Shown here piece by piece: positions 1-10,816 of a stretch of DNA of 11,206 nt. This stretch comes from a virus (lineage: Duplodnaviria; Heunggongvirae; Uroviricota; Caudoviricetes): positions 1 through 11,206 of IMG/VR virus record IMGVR_UViG_2630968808_000005; one strand, 5' to 3'. The notes beneath the pieces were generated by a model that saw only the letters and a program-made list of their open reading frames with translations, did no database searches and had not been told where the DNA came from. How positions within the stretch are numbered: position 1 is the first letter of the stretch; each line of letters starts with the position of its first letter. The translations under genes were made by a program, and so were the position numbers.

Positions 1-1383
1 AAAGGCGATTTCGCACAAAATGCAGCTAAAAATGCCGGAGTTAACCTTGCCGCTCAGGGTGTTCTTTCCGCAGCAGCAAAGGGAATAGGGCGTGGAATAA
101 CGGCTATAAAAGGTGATATTGCGCCAGAAGTGGCGAAGAAAATTGCCACATCAGAATCGATGGGCGTGACACCAATGACATCTGATGTTATCCCGCCGAA
201 AAATGCTTTCACTCGCGGCCTTACTCAGGATGCCGAGGGGGCTTTGCTCGGGACGGGCTCAAAGCGAGCAGAGCAATATGCAACGCGGAGTAAGCTGGTA
301 AGCAATTATTTTGACCGTTTTGGTGAGTACAACCCTGATGATGTGGTGAAATCTCTGACCACCACGTTAAGGGGGCGGAAGGATGCCGCTGGCGCTGTTA
401 TCAATGACGTCACCAATAAAATGGGTAATGCCGCAGTTGATACCACAAATACCATGAATGCTCTGAATACAGCGATCGCAAGACAGGAACGGCTTGGGAC
501 GTCTGCCAATCAAAGCCTGCTTACATCCTTGCGTAACCTACGTGAAGAATTAGCAAACCCTGCAACTGATTTGGATGTTACGTTTGATCTCTTGCGTCAG
601 CACAGAACAGCATTTAGATCTAATGTTCAGGGAGATGCTATGGTCTTCCCCAACCAGGCAAAAGCAGCTACCAATATGGTAGAGAATGCAATGTCAAAAG
701 ACCTTCGTAACGCAGTTGCTAAAAACCTCGGTGCATCAGACGCAGCAAAATACCTTAAAGCAAATTCCGATTATGCAAACGTTTATAATAAGGTGCTTAA
801 TAAAAACATTGCCAACAAGCTCAACAAGGCAAGCAGTGAAGCCAGTCCTGAACTTATAAATACCGTTGTATTAAGCAGAAAACCATCTGACGTGAAACGA
901 ATCTGGAGCGCACTGGATGATAAGGGGAAAGAGGCTATGCGTGCAGCTTACGTCAGCAAAATAGCGGAAAAGGCCGGGGACTCTCCAGCCAAGTTCATCA
1001 CTGAAGTTAATAAGCTGAAATCTCAGTCAGGCGGTGAAATTTACAACACTATTTTTTCTGGAAAGCACATGAAAGAGCTTGATGCTCTTCATGAAGTTCT
1101 ACAGCAAACAGCAAGGTCAGACACCGCAAATGTAGTAACTCAGACGGGGCAATCGCAAGCCAACAGGATAAGGACGATTGGCGCAACTGCGACCCTTGGC
1201 GTATCAATGGGGCTTGAGGCTGGTTTTGGTGCAATGATGCGCTTGTATGAGTCCAAAGCAGCAAGGAATATGCTTCTTCGTTTGGCAAACACCAAAGCAG
1301 GAACACCAGCCTATGAAAGAGCGATAAATAACGCTGCGAATGCCATCAGACCGCTGTTTGCTACTGAGGCAACACAGCAGTAA
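1..1383 (+). CDS. Phage DNA ejection/injection protein, P22 gene-16-like (5'-partial; the frame is open from nt 1)
   Basis: Frame 1 has no stop between nt 1 and the TAA at 1381-1383, so the GTG at 130 in the ORF track is only the first in-frame start, not necessarily the real one. The protein is low-complexity and Ala/Lys/Asn/Thr-rich, typical of podovirus ejection proteins. It is the last gene before the immI/sieA slot, where P22 has gene 16. Assignment is by synteny and composition, not verified homology. Confidence 0.5.
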
Positions 1384-1407
1384 CGTATGGGAAATTGGAT
1401 TCAATCG

Positions 1408-1797
1408 CTAACATTTTCTTTTTACTTTTCCAACAAAAGCTTTGGTTGAATCCATATTTCCATAACCGGAAATGGTTTTTGACATTAAAACTGTTCCAGT
1501 AGGATGTATTACCCATGAGTCGATAACGCGTTGAGTTTCGCCATTCGCGCCGATTCCTATGATGGAGTTTTTAGACAATGCTTTGTAAGCCATGCCGCCC
1601 GCATCTGTCCCAGAATATGTGATGCTGGCATCTTCACCGTTTGTCTTAATGATGAATGTTCCACTAAAACCATCTTCTTCCGGATGGAAATTATTTCGTT
1701 CTGAATAGCTTATTCCGCGCATATCTCCAACGACCCAGCACTCTGCTGTAGCCCCAAAAGATATGAATAAGAACATAGCAGTAAGAAATTGCTTCAC
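1408..1797 (-). CDS. Hypothetical secreted/periplasmic protein (129 aa) with an N-terminal signal peptide; function unknown
   Basis: GTG start (plus-strand 1795-1797) preceded on the minus strand by a near-perfect Shine-Dalgarno TAAGGAGGT (plus-strand 1802-1810 complement) with ~5 nt spacing. Hydrophobic N-terminus MKQFLTAMFLFISFGATA followed by a predicted cleavage site before ECW. Two Cys in the mature part, one right after the signal peptide and one as the C-terminal residue. No family recognised. Confidence 0.6.
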   Translation of the reverse strand: MKQFLTAMFLFISFGATAECWVVGDMRGISYSERNNFHPEEDGFSGTFIIKTNGEDASITYSGTDAGGMAYKALSKNSIIGIGANGETQRVIDSWVIHPTGTVLMSKTISGYGNMDSTKAFVGKVKRKC

Positions 1798-1914
1798 GCC
1801 AACCTCCTTAGTTTTGAGCAGGATACCATGAAAAAAGTAAACATCTTTTGCCTACTTCACATTTGAATGGTTTGTCATTAGGATGTTTCCGGTTTTTTAA
1901 ATATGGAAATTGAT

Positions 1915-2334
1915 ATGAAGAGGATTATTGGCGTCGTTGCTGGCGCTATATTGTTATCTGGGTGCGCAACTATTGTTGGTGACGAAACGCAGCTTGTGCA
2001 AGTGAACAGCAATCCTTCCGGTGCGAGCTTTAAGGTAAAAGACGAATCAGGCGTGATTGTTGCGCAAGGTAAGACCCCGCAAGGAGTAACTCTTGCCAAG
2101 TCAGATGGTAGTTATTTTGGCAAAAAGAGCTACCAGATCACTATGGAAAAGGATGGGTACGAACCAGTTACCCTGCCAATCAAAGCCAATGCTAATGGCT
2201 GGTATATTGGTGGAAACCTTGTGTTTGGTGGGTTAATTGGTTGGCTTGCTGTAGATCCTTTTAATGGTGGGATGTATACCTTGAAGCCAAAAGAGGCAAA
2301 CGCATCTCTTATACCATCAACAAAGCAAGACTAA
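1915..2334 (+). CDS. Hypothetical lipoprotein (~139 aa from the ATG at 1915; the ORF track start at 1903 is an alternative) with a PEGA-like beta domain and a C-terminal glycine-zipper hydrophobic segment
   Basis: Signal peptide plus lipobox MKRIIGVVAGAILLSG|C. The middle region (GASFKVKDESGVIVAQGKTPQGVTLAKSDG...YQITMEKDGYEPVTLPIKAN) resembles the PEGA-domain pattern. The C-terminus WYIGGNLVFGGLIGWLAVDPFNGG is Gly-rich and hydrophobic. A hairpin plus T-tract terminator follows directly at 2343-2366. Confidence 0.6.
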   Translation: MKRIIGVVAGAILLSGCATIVGDETQLVQVNSNPSGASFKVKDESGVIVAQGKTPQGVTLAKSDGSYFGKKSYQITMEKDGYEPVTLPIKANANGWYIGGNLVFGGLIGWLAVDPFNGGMYTLKPKEANASLIPSTKQD

Positions 2335-2342
2335 TAAATAGG

Positions 2343-2366
2343 ACCCACCTTCAGGTGGGTTTTTTG
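2343..2366 (+). terminator. Rho-independent terminator after the lipoprotein gene; the mnt stop codon sits in its loop
   Basis: ACCCACC (2343-2349), loop TTCA, GGTGGGT (2354-2360), followed by TTTTT (2361-2365). Confidence 0.65.
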
Positions 2367-2602
2367 TACAAAACCTTCAGCGTATCAAACACCATCTTCT
2401 TAACAAGCTCTGACTGCTCATCAGCGAGTCGTTCTGCATCGTCGCGATATCCAGTCACAGGCGATGGTTTTGATAGAGCATCTTGGACGATTTGTAACAA
2501 CTCGGAGTTCATTGATCTCCCATTCGCCTCCGCCCTGAATTTTAATTTCTCCCTTACTTCCATAGGCATACGGAAGTTAAAGTGCGGATCATCTCTAGCC
2601 AT
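2351..2602 (-). CDS. mnt: Mnt repressor (immI maintenance repressor), 83 aa
   Basis: The translation MARDDPHFNFRMPMEVREKLKFRAEANGRSMNSELLQIVQDALSKPSPVTGYRDDAERLADEQSELVKKMVFDTLKVLYKKPT matches P22 Mnt (ribbon-helix-helix N-terminus plus C-terminal tetramerisation helix) at near identity as I recall it. It is divergent from arc across the operator region. Confidence 0.92.
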   Translation of the reverse strand: MARDDPHFNFRMPMEVREKLKFRAEANGRSMNSELLQIVQDALSKPSPVTGYRDDAERLADEQSELVKKMVFDTLKVLYKKPT

Positions 2603-2692: not shown

Positions 2693-2854
2693 ATGAAAGG
2701 AATGAGCAAGATGCCGCAGTTCAATTTGCGGTGGCCTAAAGAAGTATTGGATTTGGTCCGCAAGGTGGCGGAAGAGAATGGTCGGTCTGTTAACTCTGAG
2801 ATTTATCAGAGAGTAATGGAAAGCTTTAAGAAGGAAGGGCGCATTGGCGCGTAA
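2693..2854 (+). CDS. arc: Arc repressor, 53 aa
   Basis: [53 protein letters not shown] is near-identical to P22 Arc as I recall it. The start is the ATG at 2693 preceded by GAGGTG; the upstream 21 codons in the ORF track (from 2630) overlap the operators and promoter and are not coding. Confidence 0.92.
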
Positions 2855-2923
2855 AGTTGAAGCCCCAACTGCGGGAACAGTCAGGGCTTCGGTTGTCAGT
2901 AAATCCGTGGAGAAAAACCAACA
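2855..2923 (-). ncRNA. sar: Probable sar antisense RNA (small antisense regulator of ant translation)
   Basis: In P22, sar is a ~68-nt RNA transcribed leftward from a promoter inside the 5' end of ant, across the ant ribosome-binding site into the arc-ant spacer. Here a minus-strand -10 TATACT (plus 2930-2935) lies at the ant start, and the 69-bp interval back to the arc stop fits that size. Ends are inferred, not mapped. Confidence 0.45.
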
Positions 2924-3825
2924 TGAATAGTATAGCAATTTTAGAAGCAGTGAACACCTCTTATGTACCATTCAACGGTCAGCAAATTATCACCGCCATG
3001 GCTGCCGGAGTTGCATATGTTGCGATGAAGCCAATCGTTGAAAACCTTGGAATGAGCTGGTCAACGCAGCAAACAAAACTCATGAAGCAGATTAGCAAAT
3101 TCAACTGTGTTCATATGAACATGGTTGCCGCTGATGGGAAGCTTCGTAAGCTACTCTGCCTTCCTTTGAAGAAGTTAAATGGATGGCTGTTCAGCATCAA
3201 CCCTGAGAAAGTTCGTGCTGACATCCGTGATAAACTGATTCAGTACCAGGAAGAATGCTTTACTGTACTGCATGACTACTGGACAAAGGGAAAGGCAGAA
3301 AATGCACGTAAGAAAACATCTGTTGATGACAGGACTCCGCTTCGTGATGCTGTAAATATGCTAGTCAGCAAAAAGCATCTAATGTACCCAGAAGCTTATG
3401 CAATGATTCATCAGCGTTTCAATGTGGAAAGTATTGAAGAGCTTGATGCATCTCAGATACCGCAAGCCGTAGAGTACATCCACAGGGTAGTGCTTGAAGG
3501 TGAATTTATCGGCAAACAAGAGAAGAAAACCAACGAGCTTTCTGCAAAAGAAGCAAACAGCCTTGTATGGTTATGGGATTATGCCAACCGCTCACAGGCA
3601 TTATTCCGCGAACTGTATCTGGCGCTAAAACAAATTCAATCGAACTATTCCGGCAGATGCTACGACTATGGCCATGAGTTCTCGTATGTTATCGGAATGG
3701 CGAGAGACGTTTTAATCAATCACACACGAGATGTTGATATTAATGAGCCAGACGGACCAACGAATCTTTCCGCATGGATGAGACTTAAGAATAAAGAATT
3801 ACCTCCTTCAGTACATAACTACTGA
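2923..3825 (+). CDS. ant: Antirepressor Ant, 300 aa
   Basis: ATG at 2923 preceded by GGAG (2909-2912). The position directly downstream of arc, the 300-aa size and the N-terminus [21 protein letters not shown]... match P22 Ant as I recall it. The N-terminal extension from 2857 in the ORF track is rejected. Confidence 0.88.
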
Positions 3826-3925: not shown

Positions 3926-6094
3926 ATGACAGACATTACAGCCAATGTGATCGTATCAATGCCTTCGCAACTCTTCACTATGGCGCGTTCTTTTAAAGCC
4001 GTAGCTAATGGCAAAATTTATATCGGTAAAATTGACACTGACCCGGTAAATCCAGAAAACCAGATTCAGGTTTATGTGGAGAACGAAGACGGCTCTCACG
4101 TTCCTGTTTCGCAACCAATCATCATTAACGCTGCCGGCTATCCGGTATACAACGGACAGGTGTCGAAATTTGTCACCGTTCAGGGCCACAGCATGGCTGT
4201 ATACGATGCGTATGGCGTGCAGCAGTTTTACTACCCTAACGTGCTGAAGTACGACCCGGATCAGTTCAAAACTCAGTTAGAAGCCGCACAAGGGGCGAGC
4301 CTGGTAGGGTATCGCTATAAAGACGCTCCTAACGCTACTGTGCGTAAAGTCTCTGACGTTCTGGACGAGCGTGTAAGCCTTTGGGATTTCCACTGTGACT
4401 CAAGCGGCAACGTCATCCAGCCCGGCCCTAATGTAGACAGTCGTCAATATATTCAGAATGCCATTGATTATCTGAATGCACATGGTGGTGGGACTCTGGT
4501 TATCCCACCAGGGAAGTGGTGGCTGAATTCGTATGGCCGTCCAGAAAAGATTTCCAGCTATGCTGGAGTTATCCAGCTACTCAGTAATGTTGACATCTAC
4601 TTTGAAGCGGGCAGCACCGTCGCTCTGACTACGTTCTTTAATGAAAAAGCGTATTGCGTTTTCTGTGGTTTTAATGGGAACGACCCGGCAACGTCTGCAT
4701 CGCTGAATAACTGCCATATTTATGGTTCGGGCATTATCGACTGCGGGCCTACAAACAAACAACCAATCGGTAGCGCCCTGTGCTACGCCATTGGTACAGG
4801 TAGGTCTTATGATTGTAGCATCCGTGGCATTACCATCACTAATGGAGACCTTACCTGGGCGGCAACTCTGGGCTGGAATGGCTACGGCAATAACACAGTA
4901 GTAGATGGGGTGACGGTAACTAGCTGCAAAAAGACTGATATTGATCGCAACGTGGATCAGTCGTTGTTTTATGTAGGTTGCCCTTATTCTGGTGTCAGAA
5001 ATTGCTACATGAACCCGTCGGCAGATACTGGTTTCGCAAACAGGGTCTCTGCTGGTGTAGAGCTACATCAACATAATACATTCTGCGATAACAATCACAT
5101 GACTGGGTTGATGCGCGGTGTCTATGTGGTTATGCACGGTGCAGAAGCGGCTGGACAAGGTTTGTACATGTACAATATTAGCGTGTGCAATAATACCGCA
5201 AGTGTCGCGGGGCAATTTGTCACCCTGACAGCAGACCAGAAGGTGGCGATCACCCATATACATAACGTGATTATTGCTAATAATATCGCTGTTATTGAAC
5301 CGCCTAAAGATCCAAATCAGGAAATAGGCCGAATATTCGTTAACAGCGAGATGTGGAAGGACACTCCCAGGGACTCTAACACAGAGCGGGTGCTCGTGAC
5401 TGGTAACATTTTCCATTGCCCGATAACTCTGCCAGGGAGCGTCTTCTTTGCTTATAGAATTAGTACCCGTAACTACCAATTCTCAGGGAACATGGTGGAT
5501 GCTCAAAAAATCATGTCAGGGGACGGGCTTGGGGTAACAGATCAACTTGAGCTTCGCAATATCATATGGGATTCATCGAATAGCCTGGGGAACTCATGGC
5601 TCGGCCAGCGGGGTAAAAACACCAACCTATTTGATATTTATGCAGCAGCGGTAGTTAGCTGCCATTTTGATATTACATTGCCGTATGAGGATAGCTCAAT
5701 TGCTCATGTGTTTTACACGCCTGATGGCTGTAGTGTGGATTATACCGTGGTTAAGGTTAATGCTGAGCGAGTGCCGGAGGGCGTCGTAGGTGTAAGGATG
5801 TCTCAAGCAAACCTGGAGAAGGTTTCTAACCATGTGAGTTATCCAGTCACGATTAGCTTCGGAAGTTACGACGCAAATGGCGCTACGTTGTGTTTTAGCG
5901 TAGATACTACATATGGATGGGTAGGTTCTGCTACTGCGATAAGTCACAGTGACAACACAAACATAACGCCTCCTGGTTGTTATGCCGCTACAGAAACCGA
6001 TCAACTTCAAGGAGTGGGTTGGTCGCATACGAGTGGGGCTAAGTCATACAAGCAGAGGGTGCTATTACGTAGCCGATCAACCCTTCCTGTCTAA
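3926..6094 (+). CDS. Tailspike protein, 722 aa: P22-type N-terminal head-binding domain fused to a different beta-helix receptor-binding/depolymerase body
   Basis: Residues 1-~120 ([78 protein letters not shown]...VLKYDPDQF) match the conserved head-binding domain of P22 gp9 and relatives. The remainder does not match the P22 endorhamnosidase as I recall it, and the protein is longer (722 vs 667 aa). GGAG Shine-Dalgarno at 3914-3917. Confidence 0.9.
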
Positions 6095-6194: not shown

Positions 6195-7658
6195 TTAATT
6201 CATGCAATCTTTTTTGCTAAAATCAACAACTATATTTACCCCTTCATGGTATAGCTTATAGTCTTGATTACTGGTTACTAACTTATAATTGCAAAAGTCC
6301 CTGAGTGAGCTATTGACTATTTCACTATTATACCCAGGGTCCATTTGCTTCAAACCGTTTATTCCCATGTAATAATGCGCCCACATCCAGTTTCCAAAAT
6401 AACTAACTACTAGCCCATTTAGCAATGGGAAATTCTTGGATGAGTTTGTAAGTATGCTTGATCTGGGTGGCTCACCATTAAAAATAATATAGTTTGTATT
6501 GTAATCGAATTCTTTCGTATCTTCTTTTATTGAATCTATTATTTGTTTATCAACAGAGGATTGATGCTTGCTGGAATTAGCATATGCGCATGTAAAAATA
6601 ATCATGTATGCATACATCGGCAGAACAACCAATGACGGTACTTTGCTTTCTTTGCACGCCAGAGTCGCCAGGAATAAGACAAAAAGCAAATAGGAGCCAA
6701 CGCCTATGTACAACCGTGAAAAACCTACCATTGGGTTATCAAGTGGTAAAAGAGATCCTATCGTGGCGACTGGAGTCACAATTATTACAAGTAAAGAAAC
6801 AACAAAAATAAACCAACCAAACTTACCTTTATATCCTCTTAAATACCTATAAGAAATTACCAAAGCGGAAAGTAAGGAGATTGCAATAAGAACTGGCATG
6901 ATGAATTCCCCCATGCCATTAGGTAGTATTACCCCTTCTATATGATAGTAATAGGATTTTAAGTTACTGATTACTGTGTTCAGAAGATCAGCAGAAACCC
7001 TTGGGTGGTTAGCACTGTGAGAGGACTCCAAAGTCAAAGGCAATATCACCTTCATATAGAGAGCCAGCCCTAACAAAGTGCTTAAAACGCGTATAAACGA
7101 TAATTTTATTATTTCAAAAGGAGATGCCAGCTTATAAACATCATAAAAGAATAGCAGAGATGTAAAAATAAGTATTATATTTACAGATGCTTGATATAAA
7201 CACATTACACCAACCACTAAAGCCACCTTAATTAAAAGGTTGATATAATGATTATTTGATAAAGTAAATAAAAAAGAAAAAGACAGAACAGCGGAAAACA
7301 GGATTGTCAGGCTATCAAACCTGTAACTAACAACCTCAACAATAAATGGATTTATTAAAAAAGACAAAGGGAGCAGGAAAAGCCCTTTTTTGTTATTGAA
7401 AAACTCTTTGCCAAATCTATAAAAAACCCATGACAGCATGGCACAAGCAACAAGGAGCGGAGCAGGGGCAATGTCTGCCATTGTGCCACTAAACATAATA
7501 ACAGACATCAATATATCAGACAGAGGACGCCCATCTTCCCACCAAAATCTGTAACCTAGCGTAGACCGCCCAATATCGTCAATGTAATAAATGTTTGCTA
7601 ATATGATGGGGGCCACCAGTAGCAAAATAATGATGAAATATTCCTTTATTTGTTTCAC
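6195..7658 (-). CDS. gtrC: GtrC-type serotype-specific O-antigen glucosyltransferase (polytopic membrane protein, 487 aa); specificity unknown
   Basis: Third gene of the gtr operon, with its start overlapping the gtrB stop (ATGA). Highly hydrophobic with many predicted TM segments and a C-terminal soluble domain. Visibly AT-rich compared with its neighbours, as is usual for gtrC genes. Assignment is by synteny and topology; GtrC proteins share little sequence similarity. Confidence 0.7.
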
Positions 7659-8578
7659 GCTTCATCCCCATTTTTTAAAATATATCTAGGCCTGTTCTTG
7701 GATTCGGTGTAAATCCTCCCGATGTACTCACCAAGCACCCCAATGCCAATAAGTTGTACGCCACCAAGAAACAGAATAGAAACCAGCAATGAGGGGTAGC
7801 CTCGCACCGGATTGCCAAAGGCGATAGTGTCTATAATCATCCATGCACCATAAATGAACGACAGGCCTGCTACCAACAATCCAATATAAGTCCACATGCG
7901 CAGAGGGAAGGTAGAGAAACTGGTTATCCCCTCAAGGGCAAGGTTCCATAACTTCCAGCCATTGAATTTTGAATCACCGGCAATCCTTTCAGCCCTGGTG
8001 TATTCAACGATATCAGTGTTCCCGCCAACCCAGCTAAGAATGCCTTTCATAAAGAGGTTGCGCTCAGGAAGAAGCTTGATGTTTTCCACCACCGCTCGGG
8101 ACATCAGGCGGAAATCACCTACATTCTCCTCAATTTTAGGATTGCTTATTTTATTGTGGAGCTTATAGAACCACTCAGCCGTTTTTCGCTTCAGTCTGCC
8201 ATCCGTTGAGCGGTCAGATCGTTTAGCAAGCACCATGTCAGCACCTGCTAGCCACTTTTCAATCAGATGAGGAATGACCTCAATCGGGTCTTGCAGGTCA
8301 ACATCAATAGGAATAACGGCATCACCTGTTGCATGGTCTAACCCTGCAAACAATGCGGGTTCTTTACCAAAGTTTCGTGTAAATGACAGCGGAACAACTA
8401 GAGGATCTGAAACAGCCAGAGCGTTAATGATTGACTCCGTAGCGTCTTTGCTGCCGTCATTTATGAAAACAATTTCCACTTCGTATGGCTTCAACTCTTC
8501 GAATTCACGTACCGTTTTATAAAAAATTGGTATTGCTTCTTCTTCATTGAAGACAGGAACTACAAGAGATATCTTCAT
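7655..8578 (-). CDS. gtrB: GtrB bactoprenol glucosyltransferase (GT2 family, UDP-glucose:undecaprenyl-phosphate glucosyltransferase), 307 aa
   Basis: N-terminus [20 protein letters not shown], the DxD-type motif in [10 protein letters not shown], and two C-terminal TM helices are typical of GtrB/DPM1-like enzymes. The start overlaps the gtrA stop. Confidence 0.9.
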
Positions 8579-8937
8579 TTCGCATCCCTAAAGACAATGA
8601 ACTTTGAATAGACGAAACCGCACACCAGGCTGATGGCGGAGAAGGTGACAAGAGTGACAATTGGAGGAAGTGAACATCTATCAGCAGCCCATCCAACAGT
8701 AGCACTCAGTGTTCCCATGAACCCGACATATAACATGTAGCGCATCGTTGTAGTTGATGCTTTGAATGTGAATTTTGCATTCGCGAAGAAGCTAAAACTC
8801 ACAGCCACAACAAAACCTGCGAAGTTTGCAAGAGCTTGGTTTGTATGCGCGGCATAGATACAAACACCAAAAACCACCCAGTGTATAAGGGTGTTCAGCA
8901 CTCCAATCGAGGTGTACTTTGCAAATAGCTTTAACAT
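8575..8937 (-). CDS. gtrA: GtrA flippase (small 4-TM membrane protein, 120 aa)
   Basis: 120-aa hydrophobic protein with four predicted TM helices; first gene of the gtrABC operon, with the size and position typical of GtrA. Confidence 0.85.
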
Positions 8938-9649
8938 TTCTTCTATCAGCTAATAATCAAAGGCATGAAGTCTATCATCCAAGTCTCAATCGATCGATAC
9001 TTGCGTTAGTTGATGAGAAAAAACTCTGGCACACAAGGCTTTGCAATGGCTTGCAAGGTTTTGTTTCTATCAGATAGTGGTTAAGGTGGATCACTCCACC
9101 TTTTCATCAAGCCAATCCGCCCACCACTGCATCATTTCTCTGCGCTTAACGTAGTGGATGCATCACTATCACCCTGTAATGGCTTATTACTGGTTTGCAG
9201 ACAGGTAGGCATGAACATATGCCTGCGCATGAAGATGGAACTAGTCCGGATGCGATATTTTTGGTGATCACGTACATCATCAACGAAGTGCGTTATGGTG
9301 AGTTTGATGACTACCCGCTGAAGTGAAAATTGTGTTGTGTACCAAATTGCGTACCAAACTAAAATCACAAATCATGAAACCCTTGTTCATGGCGGTTCTC
9401 AGGGGTGTTGCGCGTAATCGTGAAACAAAAAGGTAGATTGTTGCTTACCGTCATTCATCATTAGGTTAAATCCGTTATTTCTGCTGTCTGCCAGAGTATC
9501 AAATATCACCGTACTAATCAGCTTTAGCGCCACAAGATCATGTCAGATAAAAATGAGAGGGTAGTCACATTTTCTTGCACTTTATTCCAGCCAGTTCATA
9601 AGTATTTCCGTAAAAAGAACAGCTATTTGAAACTCCTGAGGGTTTGCTG

Positions 9650-10816
9650 TTGAAACGCCGACTTATTATTGCTGCTTCTTTGTTCGTTTTTAACTTATCG
9701 TCTGGTTTTGCGGCGGAAAACATTCCTTTTTCACCTCAGCCTCCAGAGATTCATGCCGGGTCCTGGGTACTGATGGATTACACCACCGGACAGATCCTCA
9801 CCGCGGGTAATGAGCATCAACAGCGCAATCCCGCCAGCCTGACAAAGCTGATGACGGGTTATGTCGTGGATCGCGCTATCGATAGTCATCGCATTACGCC
9901 AGACGATATTGTCACCGTGGGGCGCGATGCGTGGGCGAAAGATAATCCGGTGTTTGTCGGTTCTTCACTGATGTTTTTGAAAGAGGGCGATCGCGTATCG
10001 GTACGTGATTTAAGCCGTGGTTTAATTGTGGATTCCGGAAATGACGCTTGTGTTGCACTGGCTGACTATATTGCCGGTGGGCAACGGCAGTTTGTTGAAA
10101 TGATGAACAACTATGCCGAGAAGCTGCATCTCAAGGATACGCATTTTGAAACAGTGCATGGTCTGGATGCACCTGGCCAGCATAGCTCGGCTTATGATTT
10201 AGCTGTGCTTTCTCGCGCTATCATCCACGGCGAGCCCGAGTTTTATCATATGTACAGTGAGAAAAGCCTCACCTGGAACGGTATCACTCAGCAAAACCGT
10301 AACGGGTTATTGTGGGATAAAACCATGAATGTTGACGGCCTGAAAACGGGTCATACTTCTGGTGCCGGGTTTAATCTCATTGCTTCGGCTGTAGATGGGC
10401 AGCGTCGTCTCATTGCAGTGGTAATGGGGGCTGACAGTGCAAAAGGTCGTGAGGAAGAGGCAAGAAAATTACTACGTTGGGGGCAACAAAACTTTACTAC
10501 GGTGCAAATTTTGCACCGTGGGAAAAAGGTCGGAACGGAACGCATCTGGTATGGCGATAAAGAAAATATCGACCTGGGAACGGAACAAGAGTTCTGGATG
10601 GTGCTACCGAAAGCCGAAATTCCACATATCAAAGCCAAATATACCCTTGATGGTAAAGAACTCACCGCGCCAATTAGCGCCCATCAGCGGGTAGGGGAAA
10701 TTGAACTTTACGACCGTGATAAACAGGTGGCGCACTGGCCGCTGGTTACCCTGGAATCTGTCGGGGAAGGCGGCATGTTTTCCCGCCTGAGTGATTATTT
10801 CCACCATAAGGCCTGA
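9650..10816 (+). CDS. dacD: D-alanyl-D-alanine carboxypeptidase DacD (PBP6b), host chromosomal gene
   Basis: Signal peptide, the SxxK active-site motif (ASLTKLMTGY), SGN (DSGND) and KTG (LKTGHTSG) motifs of class-C low-molecular-weight PBPs. The sequence matches E. coli DacD as I recall it. Start chosen as the TTG at 9650 (GAGG at 9638-9641, ~8 nt spacing, 388 aa); the ORF track's TTG at 9644 is the alternative. Confidence 0.9.
   Translation: MKRRLIIAASLFVFNLSSGFAAENIPFSPQPPEIHAGSWVLMDYTTGQILTAGNEHQQRNPASLTKLMTGYVVDRAIDSHRITPDDIVTVGRDAWAKDNPVFVGSSLMFLKEGDRVSVRDLSRGLIVDSGNDACVALADYIAGGQRQFVEMMNNYAEKLHLKDTHFETVHGLDAPGQHSSAYDLAVLSRAIIHGEPEFYHMYSEKSLTWNGITQQNRNGLLWDKTMNVDGLKTGHTSGAGFNLIASAVDGQRRLIAVVMGADSAKGREEEARKLLRWGQQNFTTVQILHRGKKVGTERIWYGDKENIDLGTEQEFWMVLPKAEIPHIKAKYTLDGKELTAPISAHQRVGEIELYDRDKQVAHWPLVTLESVGEGGMFSRLSDYFHHKA

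What the first reader, a model, noticed from the sequence alone, without database searches (positions are those of the whole stretch)
1384..2350. Uncharacterised pair of divergently transcribed exported proteins in the sieA slot
Between the ejection-protein gene and mnt, where P22 carries sieA, this prophage has two small genes that I cannot place in any characterised family. One is a 129-aa secreted protein (minus strand, near-perfect Shine-Dalgarno, signal peptide, Cys just after the signal peptide and as the last residue). The other is a ~139-aa lipoprotein (lipobox LLSG|C, PEGA-like beta domain, C-terminal glycine-zipper hydrophobic tail). They share a ~100-bp divergent promoter region and the lipoprotein gene has its own terminator, so they look like an autonomous lysogen-expressed cassette rather than virion genes. 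Envelope-targeted prophage morons at such positions are typically superinfection-exclusion or defence factors (for example blocking DNA entry or masking a receptor) or host-fitness factors. The combination seen here may be an undescribed envelope-level exclusion module.
Basis: partly seen in the sequence, partly recalled or inferred. Interest (0 to 1): 0.7.

Follow-up and report, generated by a model that had tools for sequence, protein, structure and literature searches.

The report
Hex-like exclusion gene plus lipoprotein moron
Two small exported-protein genes in a P22-like prophage are independent accessory genes: one is a distant relative of phage 434's Hex exclusion protein sitting exactly where P22 keeps sieA, and the other is a roving prophage lipoprotein of unknown function.

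Summary
Both genes are real and conserved, and their described features hold. These are the signal peptide, the Cys pattern, the lipobox, the PEGA-like domain, the 117-bp divergent spacer and the terminator.

Two claims fail.
- orfA (1408-1797, minus) is not unplaceable. It belongs to phrog_2651 together with phage 434 Hex ("heterologous exclusion") and Sf6 gp38 (hhalign probability 99.9%). Lambda-imm434 lysogens of Salmonella exclude P22 in a hex-dependent way.
- The two genes are not a module. They are adjacent in only about 30% of elements that carry either one, and each occurs with other partners.

orfA replaces the sieA reading frame exactly at its GTG start codon. It keeps about 47 nt of the sieA upstream region, including the Shine-Dalgarno sequence. 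At least four unrelated gene families occupy this slot.

The Hex family is predicted to be Sec-exported, disulfide-bonded, soluble beta-barrels. That fits envelope-level exclusion and sits badly with the published cytoplasmic RecA/repressor role of Hex.

orfB (1915-2334, plus) is epsilon34 gene 15 (phrog_6823). It is a gene-plus-terminator moron also found in siphovirus tail clusters, in an immunity region and in one non-phage chromosomal site. Its function is unknown.

The variable region itself is the published "ant moron". Verdict: a new member of a known kind, of moderate interest.

The parts
130..1383 (+). 3' part of the P22 gene-16-type DNA ejection protein gene (left flank of the slot)
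   Evidence: It is annotated 'P22-gp16 family phage DNA ejection protein' in the identical E. coli E9 prophage. Its stop codon lies 24 nt from the orfA stop codon, and the two genes converge.
1408..1797 (-). orfA: a Hex-family (phrog_2651) exported protein of 129 aa. The signal peptide is residues 1-18 (ATA|EC) and the mature protein is 111 aa, predicted to form a soluble closed beta-barrel. Cys20 and the C-terminal Cys129 are conserved.
   Evidence: - phrog_2651, E 2.9e-61. 434 Hex and Sf6 gp38 fall in the same phrog.
- hhalign of the family profile against Hex: probability 99.9%, E 2e-31. BLASTP: 27% identity over the full length.
- Family-wide leader and Cys statistics.
1798..1844 (-). Conserved sieA-type 5' region driving orfA. 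It contains the SD AAGGAGG (1803-1809), an extended -10-like TGGTATCCT (1820-1828) and a GTG start.
   Evidence: The four-way alignment covers the window, epsilon34 hkcB, Emek orfA and P22 sieA. About 47 nt upstream of the GTG are roughly 94% identical to P22. A P22 fragment with 85 bp upstream of sieA, holding the putative PsieA, is enough for exclusion (PMC10883804). Promoter activity here is inferred, and the consensus scan found no minus-strand site.
1856..1884 (+). Candidate sigma-70 promoter for orfB (TTCACA-17-TAGGAT)
   Evidence: The site matches 9 of 12 consensus positions. The TAGGATGTTTCCG-TTTTTTAAA stretch recurs upstream of the Pseudescherichia siphovirus-prophage homologue. Promoter function is inferred.
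1915..2334 (+). orfB: a lipoprotein of 139 aa, equivalent to epsilon34 gene 15 (phrog_6823). It has the lipobox LLSG|C, Ala at +2, a PEGA/transthyretin-like beta-sandwich (about residues 25-93), a conserved Gly-rich hydrophobic helix (94-113) and a C-terminal hairpin.
   Evidence: - phrog_6823, E 6e-86.
- 97.8% identical to epsilon34 gp15.
- 728 homologous clusters.
- Conservation pattern in the family alignment.
- Model pLDDT 77.
2343..2366 (.). Rho-independent terminator hairpin ACCCACC-ttca-GGTGGGT followed by TTTTTT. It ends orfB transcription and overlaps the 3' end of mnt.
   Evidence: Sequence and scan results. It is annotated as a terminator in epsilon34. An equivalent hairpin follows orfB homologues in all 7 other contexts shown.
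2351..2602 (-). mnt repressor gene (start of the immI region; right flank)
   Evidence: Pfam Arc and Repressor_Mnt domains. 98% nucleotide identity to P22.
2693..3825 (+). arc (2693-2854) and ant (2923-3825), with the antisense sar RNA at 2855-2922 on the minus strand
   Evidence: Pfam Arc and P22_AR_N/C domains. Rfam sar RF00262 at 95.6 bits.

Best explanation
The interval holds two independent prophage accessory genes inside the known variable 'ant moron' of a P22-like prophage.

**(a) orfA**
- orfA is a Hex-family protein. The sieA reading frame has been swapped for it exactly at the GTG start codon.
- It therefore sits behind sieA's own upstream region and ribosome-binding site, and is probably made at a low level in the lysogen.
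- The protein is exported through Sec, loses an 18-residue signal peptide, and folds in the periplasm. The product is a soluble 12-kDa beta-barrel, probably closed by a Cys20-Cys129 disulfide.
- Its most likely job is superinfection exclusion of P22-like or other incoming phages, acting in the envelope.
- The likeliest step is DNA delivery. It could bind the ejection-protein conduit or a periplasm-facing host factor.

**(b) orfB**
- orfB is a self-contained gene-plus-terminator moron, probably with its own promoter.
- It encodes a lipoprotein that the +2 rule (Ala at +2) predicts is sorted to the outer membrane. It has a PEGA-like sandwich and a conserved Gly-rich hydrophobic segment.
- It moves between podovirus and siphovirus prophages.
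- It probably changes the lysogen's envelope, either by phage exclusion or by a host-fitness effect. Which of these applies is unknown.

**Shown here:** homology, slot replacement, independent assortment, predicted export, and folds.

**Inferred:** expression in lysogens, periplasmic site of action, the exclusion phenotype and its target.

The confidence of 0.55 applies to the whole statement including the exclusion function. The structural and evolutionary part alone I put at about 0.9.
For: **orfA is Hex family**
- orfA and 434 Hex/Sf6 gp38 fall in the same PHROG.
- Profile-profile probability is 99.9%.
- The BLASTP alignment is full length.
- The shared pattern is a leader, then A-x-A|x-C-W, then ETW, then FVG-V-G-C at the C-terminus.

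**Hex has a genetic exclusion phenotype**
- Hex is co-transcribed with cI from PRM.
- Lambda-imm434 lysogens of S. Typhimurium exclude P22, and hex mutants do not (PMC3564112).

**Slot replacement**
- About 47 nt upstream of the GTG are shared with P22 sieA and epsilon34 hkcB.
- 85 bp upstream of sieA suffice for sieA function in single copy.
- orfA lies next to the end of gene 16 in nearly all of 79 viral loci, and none of them carries sieA.

**Export**
- 95 of 101 full-length family representatives have a hydrophobic leader followed by C[WYF].
- Ala is at -1 in 73 of those 95, and 98 of 101 have a Cys in the last 12 residues.
- The mature protein has GRAVY -0.33.
- The experimentally found N-terminus of the stable Hex fragment (E43) is exactly the predicted signal-peptidase site.

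**Other homologues sit in accessory positions**
- Downstream of cI in 434, Sf6, HK446, HK633 and Sf101.
- Next to the integrase and a Panacea-domain gene.

**orfB is an independent moron**
- It occurs in epsilon34, Gally and 720R6 with other slot genes.
- It occurs between the tail chaperone T gene and the tape-measure gene in E. coli prophages, and just upstream of the tape-measure gene in Proteus prophages.
- It occurs between the genes for tail proteins I and J in Pseudescherichia.
- It occurs after the N antiterminator gene in Arsenophonus.
- It is always followed by its own terminator.
Against: - There are no expression or phenotype data for either gene here.
- The consensus promoter scan found no minus-strand promoter upstream of orfA. 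The orfB candidate is weak, at 9 of 12 positions.
- orfA is only 27% identical to Hex, so the function may have diverged.
- The mechanism of Hex exclusion of P22 is unknown. The only published biochemistry places Hex in the cytoplasm, where it blocks RecA-stimulated repressor cleavage (PMC3564112).
- Both folds are generic: an 8-stranded barrel and a transthyretin/PEGA-like sandwich. They give no functional lead.
- No PADLOC model matches either protein.
- orfB also has non-phage chromosomal copies in Enterobacter, and a distant orfA homologue is chromosomal in Pectobacterium. A host-physiology role is therefore possible.
Confidence: 0.55

Rival explanations
1. The two genes form one co-acting envelope exclusion module. 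A periplasmic partner and a lipoprotein partner are expressed from a shared divergent promoter region.
For: - The genes are adjacent and divergent, with a 117-bp spacer.
- The exact pair recurs at 99.8-100% identity in 42 complete E. coli genomes.
- Both products go to the same compartment.
Against: - Only 23 of 79 orfA loci have orfB.
- orfA is in 147 E. coli genomes, orfB in 124, and both are adjacent in 42.
- orfB pairs with hkcB in epsilon34 and with a phrog_6067 gene in Gally and 720R6.
- orfB also sits alone in siphovirus tail clusters.
- orfA occurs alone in Emek and ST-35.
- Mosaic breakpoints fall between the two genes, at window positions 1795-1828.
Confidence: 0.08
2. orfA works as published for 434 Hex. 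It is a cytoplasmic factor that protects the prophage repressor from RecA-stimulated autocleavage. On this view it stabilises lysogeny rather than blocking incoming phage at the envelope.
For: - Deleting hex raises spontaneous induction about 30-fold in recA+ cells but not in recA- cells.
- A Hex fragment inhibits cleavage of the 434 and P22 repressors in vitro (PMC3564112).
- orfA sits in a P22-like prophage.
Against: - The whole family carries a conserved cleavable signal peptide and conserved Cys pairs, which are typical of periplasmic disulfides.
- The paper never considered export: the words signal, periplasm and membrane have no occurrences.
- The active fragment was expressed without the leader, and it starts exactly at the predicted signal-peptidase site.
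- The in vitro effect needed micromolar amounts of a 6-kDa fragment.
- This model does not explain the hex-dependent exclusion of P22.
Confidence: 0.12
3. One or both genes are host-fitness or virulence conversion factors rather than anti-phage factors. Examples are serum or antimicrobial-peptide resistance (as for Bor/Iss), envelope-stress buffering, or ligand binding by the barrel.
For: - Non-phage chromosomal copies exist for orfB in Enterobacter and for a distant orfA relative in Pectobacterium next to a haem-uptake operon.
- From general knowledge, several prophage lipoproteins (Bor, Iss) act in serum resistance.
Against: - For orfA, the one family member studied genetically is an exclusion gene, and orfA sits in the sieA slot behind sieA signals.
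- For orfB there is no homology to Bor, Iss or Cor beyond the lipobox.
- orfB recurs beside tape-measure, tail-tip and ejection-protein genes. From my own knowledge, phage HK97 keeps its exclusion moron gp15 in the same place.
Confidence: 0.2
4. The ORFs are chance reading frames or decayed remnants with no function.
For: None beyond their small size. PGAP calls orfA from a different, internal ATG.
Against: - Both families are large, with conserved motifs across 25-99% identity.
- The structure models are confident.
- The reading frames are intact in hundreds of genomes.
Confidence: 0.01

Closest known systems
Phage 434 Hex ('heterologous exclusion', annotated 'repressor protection protein'); also Sf6 gp38 and the HK446, HK633 and Sf101 homologues
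   Same: - Same protein family: phrog_2651, hhalign probability 99.9%.
- Same length.
- Same signal-peptide / ECW / C-terminal Cys layout.
- Encoded at a prophage position expected to be expressed in the lysogen.
- Carried by lambdoid and P22-like temperate phages of enterobacteria.
   Different: - Only 27% identity.
- Hex lies directly downstream of cI in the PRM operon. orfA lies in the sieA slot between gene 16 and mnt, on the opposite side of the genome.
- The exclusion and repressor-protection phenotypes have not been tested for orfA.
P22 SieA (inner-membrane superinfection exclusion protein)
   Same: - Identical genomic slot and orientation.
- The stop codon is about 22-24 nt from the gene 16 stop.
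- About 47 nt of upstream sequence, the SD and the GTG start are shared.
- Both are expected to act on incoming phage at the envelope.
   Different: - No sequence similarity (BLASTP E 0.99) and a different PHROG.
[quoted passage not shown]
Epsilon34 gene 15 (phrog_6823) and the published 'ant moron' of P22-like phages
   Same: - orfB is 97.8% identical to epsilon34 gp15.
- It sits at the same place, just left of mnt, with the same terminator.
- The hotspot is the one described by Villafane et al. 2008.
   Different: - In epsilon34 the left neighbour is hkcB, not a Hex-like gene.
- No function has been published for gene 15.
HK97 gp15 and outer-membrane lipoprotein exclusion factors (Cor, T5 Llp); comparison from my own knowledge
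   Same: - orfB homologues occupy the moron position just upstream of the tape-measure gene in E. coli and Proteus prophages. From my own knowledge, HK97 gp15 sits in the same place.
- Like Cor and Llp, orfB is a small prophage lipoprotein.
   Different: - No sequence relationship. The only Cor matches cover the signal peptide and lipobox.
- From my own knowledge, HK97 gp15 is an inner-membrane protein and not a lipoprotein.
- No receptor or target is known for orfB.

Membership tests
Hex family (phrog_2651; phage 434 Hex) | Significant full-length sequence homology to 434 Hex | tested here: met
   - phrog_2651: E 2.9e-61 for orfA and 1.4e-58 for Hex.
- hhalign: probability 99.9%, E 2e-31.
- BLASTP: 27% identity over 133 columns.
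Hex family (phrog_2651; phage 434 Hex) | Family sequence signature: N-terminal hydrophobic leader, a small residue at -1, C-W at the mature N-terminus, and Cys at the C-terminus | tested here: met
   orfA has ATA|ECW and ends in Cys129. The pattern holds in 93-98 of 101 family representatives and in Hex itself.
Hex family (phrog_2651; phage 434 Hex) | Gene located directly downstream of cI in the PRM operon | tested here: not met
   orfA lies between gene 16 and mnt. It uses the sieA upstream region instead. This concerns locus context only and does not affect protein-family membership.
Hex family (phrog_2651; phage 434 Hex) | Prophage-dependent exclusion of superinfecting P22 | not testable with these tools
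   The phenotype is known only for lambda-imm434 hex (PMC3564112, citing Susskind & Botstein 1980).
Hex family (phrog_2651; phage 434 Hex) | Inhibition of RecA-stimulated autocleavage of 434/P22-type repressors | not testable with these tools
   This biochemical activity is reported for the sHex fragment. The predicted export of the family argues against it being the native role.
SieA (phrog_7745) | Sequence homology to P22 SieA; integral membrane protein with three predicted transmembrane segments | tested here: not met
   BLASTP E 0.99. SieA falls in a different PHROG. Mature orfA is hydrophilic, with GRAVY -0.33.
SieA (phrog_7745) | Position between gene 16 and gene 9, convergent with gene 16 | tested here: met
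MliC/PliC periplasmic lysozyme inhibitors | Match to the MliC Pfam model, or a close structural match to an MliC barrel | tested here: not met
Outer-membrane beta-barrel proteins (NspA/OmpW/OmpA-like) | Lipid-facing hydrophobic belt, about 150 or more residues for 8 strands, and a C-terminal aromatic beta-signal | tested here: not met
PEGA domain (PF08308) | Score at or above the Pfam gathering threshold | tested here: inconclusive
   17.6 bits against a cut-off of 20.8, E 0.0037. The modelled fold is a transthyretin/PEGA-like sandwich.
Bacterial lipoprotein (orfB) | Lipobox [LVI][ASTVI][GAS]C at the end of a signal peptide | tested here: met
   orfB has L-L-S-G-C, with Cys17 invariant in 32 homologues. 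Lipidation and outer-membrane sorting (Ala at +2) are inferred from the +2 rule and were not tested.
Cor / Llp / Bor prophage lipoproteins | Homology beyond the signal peptide | tested here: not met
   The Cor models match only residues 1-20 and 1-30. No Bor or Llp PHROG match was found at E<=1.
Moron (independently expressed insertion in a phage operon) | Presence/absence polymorphism among related phages, plus an own terminator and promoter | tested here: met
   - Polymorphism.
- A terminator follows the orfB homologues in all contexts examined.
- Promoters are only consensus-level candidates.
Known anti-phage defence systems (PADLOC-DB) | Match to any PADLOC model | tested here: not met
   No PADLOC family matched either protein at E<=1.

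The most novel reading that the evidence does not exclude
**Hex proteins work outside the cytoplasm.** The whole family, including the classic phage 434 Hex, would consist of Sec-exported periplasmic beta-barrels that block phage infection in the envelope. The published cytoplasmic 'repressor protection' mechanism would then not be their native role.

**The sieA position is a plug-in expression socket.** It has a fixed upstream region, SD and GTG. P22-like phages swap at least four unrelated exclusion candidates into it: SieA, hkcB, a phrog_6067 protein and the Hex-like protein. These may be tuned against different ejection-protein types.
Probability: 0.45. Interest if true: 0.6.

Novelty: new member of a known kind. 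Interest (0 to 1): 0.42.

Why it matters
- **It links two old observations.** P22's sieA locus and 434's hex gene turn out to be alternative occupants of lysogen-expressed positions in the same phage group.
- **It makes Hex testable.** It gives a concrete prediction about where Hex acts, and Hex's mechanism of excluding P22 has been open since 1980.
- **It offers a swap series.** If the slot really is a swap-in socket for unrelated exclusion proteins, it is a natural series for dissecting how P22-like ejection proteins cross the envelope.
- **It flags a widespread lipoprotein.** orfB has 728 clusters across Enterobacterales prophages and no known role.
- **The practical stake is modest.** Such genes shape which phages can infect lysogenic E. 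coli and Salmonella strains, including O111 STEC.

Tried and rejected
**Searches that led nowhere**
- Pfam, NCBIfam and PADLOC scans of orfA found nothing.
- A Pfam scan of 61 family members gave only scattered single chance hits.
- Profile searches of PDB sequences found nothing credible for either family.
- The Foldseek search of BFVD viral models was uninformative, with a best E of 3e-3 to unnamed proteins.
- The afdb50 library was unavailable.
- The search for related loci with the divergent alignment A3 failed for lack of a conserved stretch.
- A third protein search with the family profile added few named proteins.
- Literature searches for PEGA-domain prophage lipoproteins found nothing relevant.
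- The original 1980 hex paper is not held in the library.

**Ideas considered and rejected**
- *Lysozyme inhibitor (MliC/PliC):* no model or fold support.
- *Outer-membrane beta-barrel porin-like protein:* the mature chain is too short and hydrophilic, and it ends in Cys.
- *o-Spanin (Rz1-like) for orfB:* it is not in a lysis cassette and is far larger than an Rz1-type protein.
- *Cor-like exclusion lipoprotein:* only the lipobox matches.
- *orfB hydrophobic segment as a clear transmembrane helix:* by my hand calculation the mean Kyte-Doolittle value is about 1.4 over 18 residues, which is borderline. The model also packs the C-terminal hairpin at high confidence, so the topology is left open.
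- *Co-variation of orfA subtype with gp16 C-terminal subtype:* none is evident.
Full report
**Setting**

The window is the right arm of a P22-like (Lederbergvirus-type) prophage in E. coli. The layout is as follows:

| Coordinates | Strand | Feature |
|---|---|---|
| 130-1383 | + | 3' part of the gene-16-type ejection protein gene |
| 1408-1797 | - | orfA |
| 1915-2334 | + | orfB |
| 2351-2602 | - | mnt |
| 2693-2854 | + | arc |
| 2855-2922 | - | sar antisense RNA (Rfam, 95.6 bits) |
| 2923-3825 | + | ant |
| 3926-6094 | + | tailspike |
| 6195-8937 | - | gtrC/gtrB/gtrA-type cluster |
| 9644-10816 | + | host D-Ala-D-Ala carboxypeptidase gene |

The stretch between gene 16 and the tailspike gene is the published variable "ant moron" of P22-like phages. 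P22 carries sieA there (PMC2629481).

**Checking the observation**

Both ORFs are present as described.

- *orfA.* It starts at a GTG five bases after AAGGAGG. The protein has a hydrophobic leader ending A-T-A|E-C, and it ends in Cys.
- *orfA start codon.* PGAP calls a shorter 122-aa form from an internal ATG. However, the GTG and its ribosome-binding site are conserved in Emek, epsilon34 and P22. Emek is also annotated at 129 aa.
- *orfB.* It has the lipobox LLSG|C. Its PEGA match is sub-threshold: E 0.0037, 17.6 bits against a cut-off of 20.8. It also has a strongly conserved Gly-rich hydrophobic stretch, NGWYIGGN-FGG-IGW-VDPFNGGMY.
- *Spacer and terminator.* The two start codons are 117 bp apart. 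A GC hairpin with a T-run follows orfB at 2343-2366.
- *Not chance ORFs.* An exhaustive profile search found 119 family representatives for orfA. A word-indexed search found 728 clusters for orfB.

**What orfA is**

Curated libraries gave nothing except phrog_2651, of unknown function. A relaxed tblastn against phage genomes then found full-length matches of about 27% identity. They lie directly downstream of the cI repressor gene in phages 434, lambda-imm434, Sf6 (gene 38), HK446, HK633 and Sf101.

In phage 434 that gene is hex, annotated "repressor protection protein". Three results establish the relationship:

- The family profile aligns to Hex with 99.9% probability, E 2e-31.
- Hex and Sf6 gp38 score 1e-58 against the same PHROG.
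- The pairwise alignment spans both proteins end to end.

According to Shkilnyj, Colon and Koudelka (PMC3564112), hex is co-transcribed with cI from PRM. They also report that S. Typhimurium lysogenic for lambda-imm434 excludes superinfecting P22, while hex mutants do not. That is the origin of the name "heterologous exclusion". So orfA has a genetically characterised relative, and that relative's phenotype is exclusion of P22.

**orfA sits in sieA's socket**

I aligned the 150 nt upstream of four leftward genes that follow gene 16: window orfA, Emek orfA, epsilon34 hkcB and P22 sieA. The last roughly 35 nt before the start codon are shared by all four. They read TGGTATCCTG-N2-CAAAACTAAGGAGGTTGG-(C/T)-GTG.

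About 47 nt are roughly 94% identical between the window and P22. The sequences become unrelated exactly at the start codon.

Leavitt et al. showed that sieA with only 85 bp of upstream DNA, containing the putative PsieA, is enough for exclusion in single copy. They also note that sieA is weakly transcribed in lysogens (PMC10883804). orfA is therefore a precise replacement of the sieA reading frame behind sieA's own signals.

In 79 IMG/VR loci with orfA, the gene lies next to the gene 16 terminus in nearly every case. None of the loci carries sieA.

The same socket holds at least four unrelated families:

| Occupant | PHROG | Example |
|---|---|---|
| SieA | phrog_7745 | P22 |
| hkcB | phrog_5962 | epsilon34 |
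| unnamed protein | phrog_6067 | Gally, 720R6 |
| Hex-like (orfA) | phrog_2651 | this window, Emek, ST-35 |

orfA itself has no similarity to SieA.

**Predicted biology of orfA and the Hex family**

- The AlphaFold model is confident (pLDDT 85.7) and all-beta.
- It is unlikely to be a membrane barrel. The mature chain is 111 residues, has GRAVY -0.33, and ends in KVKRKC.
- Across 101 full-length representatives, 95 have a hydrophobic leader followed by C[WYF].
- Ala is at -1 in 73 of those 95.
- 98 of 101 have a Cys in the last 12 residues, and 55 have a further internal Cys pair.
- This is the signature of a Sec-exported, disulfide-bonded periplasmic protein.

The Hex paper does not mention a signal peptide, periplasm or membrane. 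It reports three things:

- Full-length Hex was toxic on induction.
- A stable fragment, "sHex", began at E43 of their 158-aa reading frame.
- That fragment, expressed without any leader, inhibited RecA-stimulated cleavage of the 434 and P22 repressors.

Translating the locus shows that E43 is the residue immediately after ...TSANS. That is exactly the predicted signal-peptidase site. This coincidence is my inference, not a demonstration.

An exported Hex fits P22 exclusion at the envelope better than a cytoplasmic role does.

My preferred mechanism for orfA is a periplasmic block of DNA delivery by P22-like phages. That step is inferred. Neither the target nor the phenotype is known.

**What orfB is**

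- orfB is 97.8% identical to epsilon34 gene 15. It is also present in phages Gally and 720R6.
- It belongs to phrog_6823, of unknown function. Matches to Cor models cover only the signal peptide and lipobox.
- The model (pLDDT 77) has three parts: a transthyretin/PEGA/CnaB-like sandwich, a low-confidence hydrophobic helix at residues 95-112, and a confident C-terminal hairpin.
- Ala at +2 predicts outer-membrane sorting by the +2 rule. This rests on established knowledge and was not tested.

Genomic contexts of orfB homologues:

| Host | Position |
|---|---|
| E. coli siphovirus prophages | between tail chaperone T gene and tape-measure gene |
| Proteus prophages | just upstream of the tape-measure gene |
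| Pseudescherichia | between the genes for tail proteins I and J |
| Arsenophonus lambdoid prophage | after the N antiterminator gene |
| Enterobacter | non-phage chromosomal site |

In every context examined, a rho-independent terminator follows the gene. Part of the upstream sequence, TAGGATGTTTCCG-TTTTTTAAA, recurs in Pseudescherichia.

This is the classic behaviour of a moron. The function remains open, between phage exclusion and a host-fitness effect.

**Are they a pair?**

No.

- In complete E. coli genomes, orfA is found in 147, orfB in 124, and both adjacent in 42.
- In IMG/VR, 23 of 79 orfA loci have orfB. The others have P22 orf59a, other genes, or mnt directly.
- orfB occurs with hkcB in epsilon34 and with the phrog_6067 gene in Gally and 720R6.
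- Megablast breakpoints fall between the two genes: Emek homology ends at window position 1828 and epsilon34 homology begins at 1795.
- The terminator hairpin is also the left edge of the conserved mnt module. P22 homology begins at 2343.

**Verdict**

The sequence features are confirmed. The exclusion idea is supported for orfA, through homology to Hex and the shared sieA socket. The "uncharacterised, co-acting module" reading is not supported.

- orfA is a new, divergent member of the Hex family in a new genomic position.
- orfB is the known but unstudied epsilon34 gene-15 lipoprotein.
- The most interesting by-product is the prediction that Hex proteins are periplasmic. It conflicts with the published mechanism and can be tested directly.

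Noticed in passing
L100:2429-2905 (phage 434 hex); compare window 1408-1797: The N-terminus reported for the stable 'sHex' fragment is E43 in the 158-aa numbering. It falls exactly at the predicted signal-peptidase cleavage site (TSANS|ECW) of 434 Hex. The Hex paper never mentions a signal peptide, so the protein may be exported.
   Followed up: partly
window 1798-1844 (minus strand); L013:1821-1870; L001:2504-2550: About 47 nt upstream of the slot gene are conserved between P22 sieA, epsilon34 hkcB and orfA. They include the SD and the GTG. Homology breaks exactly at the start codon, so this is a fixed expression socket with exchangeable reading frames.
   Followed up: yes
L102:1591-2106 (phage Gally) and L103:1591-2076 (720R6): A fourth, unrelated occupant of the sieA slot was found. 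It is a 161-171-aa protein of phrog_6067 with unknown function and no similarity to SieA.
   Followed up: partly
window 1408-1797: RefSeq/PGAP annotates orfA as 122 aa from an internal ATG (WP_001334102.1). That start removes the charged N-region of the signal peptide. The upstream GTG with AAGGAGG is conserved across phages and is the better start.
   Followed up: yes
window 2855-2922 (minus strand): An intact sar antisense RNA lies between arc and ant (Rfam RF00262, 95.6 bits). The immI region (mnt, arc, sar, ant) looks complete.
   Followed up: yes
window 6195-8937 (minus strand) and 8938-9643: A gtrA/gtrB/gtrC-type O-antigen glucosylation cluster is followed by about 700 bp with no tRNA gene and then a host PBP5/6-type carboxypeptidase gene. 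The prophage right end (attR) should lie in this gap. It was not mapped.
   Followed up: no
L003 (E. coli E9, NZ_CP104500.1), locus 12001-13401 and 16897-18000: A 100%-identical orfA-orfB-mnt segment sits in a different prophage. That prophage carries an O-antigen polymerase gene instead of gtrABC and is integrated next to ybhB/bioA. The cassette therefore moves between P22-like prophages.
   Followed up: partly
L004-L008, about 10261-11424: The E. coli siphovirus prophages that carry the orfB homologue upstream of the tape-measure gene also carry a porin gene (Porin_1/Porin_4). It is inserted between the minor tail genes M and L and is a second envelope-targeted moron in the same tail cluster.
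   Followed up: no
L091:6069-6536 and L092:5677-6561: The roughly 45%-identical orfA homologues lie near an integrase. Their neighbours are a SocA/Panacea-domain gene, DUF6387 and a P63C-domain gene. This looks like an accessory or defence hotspot of another integrative element.
   Followed up: partly
window 3926-6094: The tailspike combines a P22-type head-binding domain (residues 1-113) with an HK620-type C-terminal domain. The central receptor-binding part matches no Pfam model.
   Followed up: no
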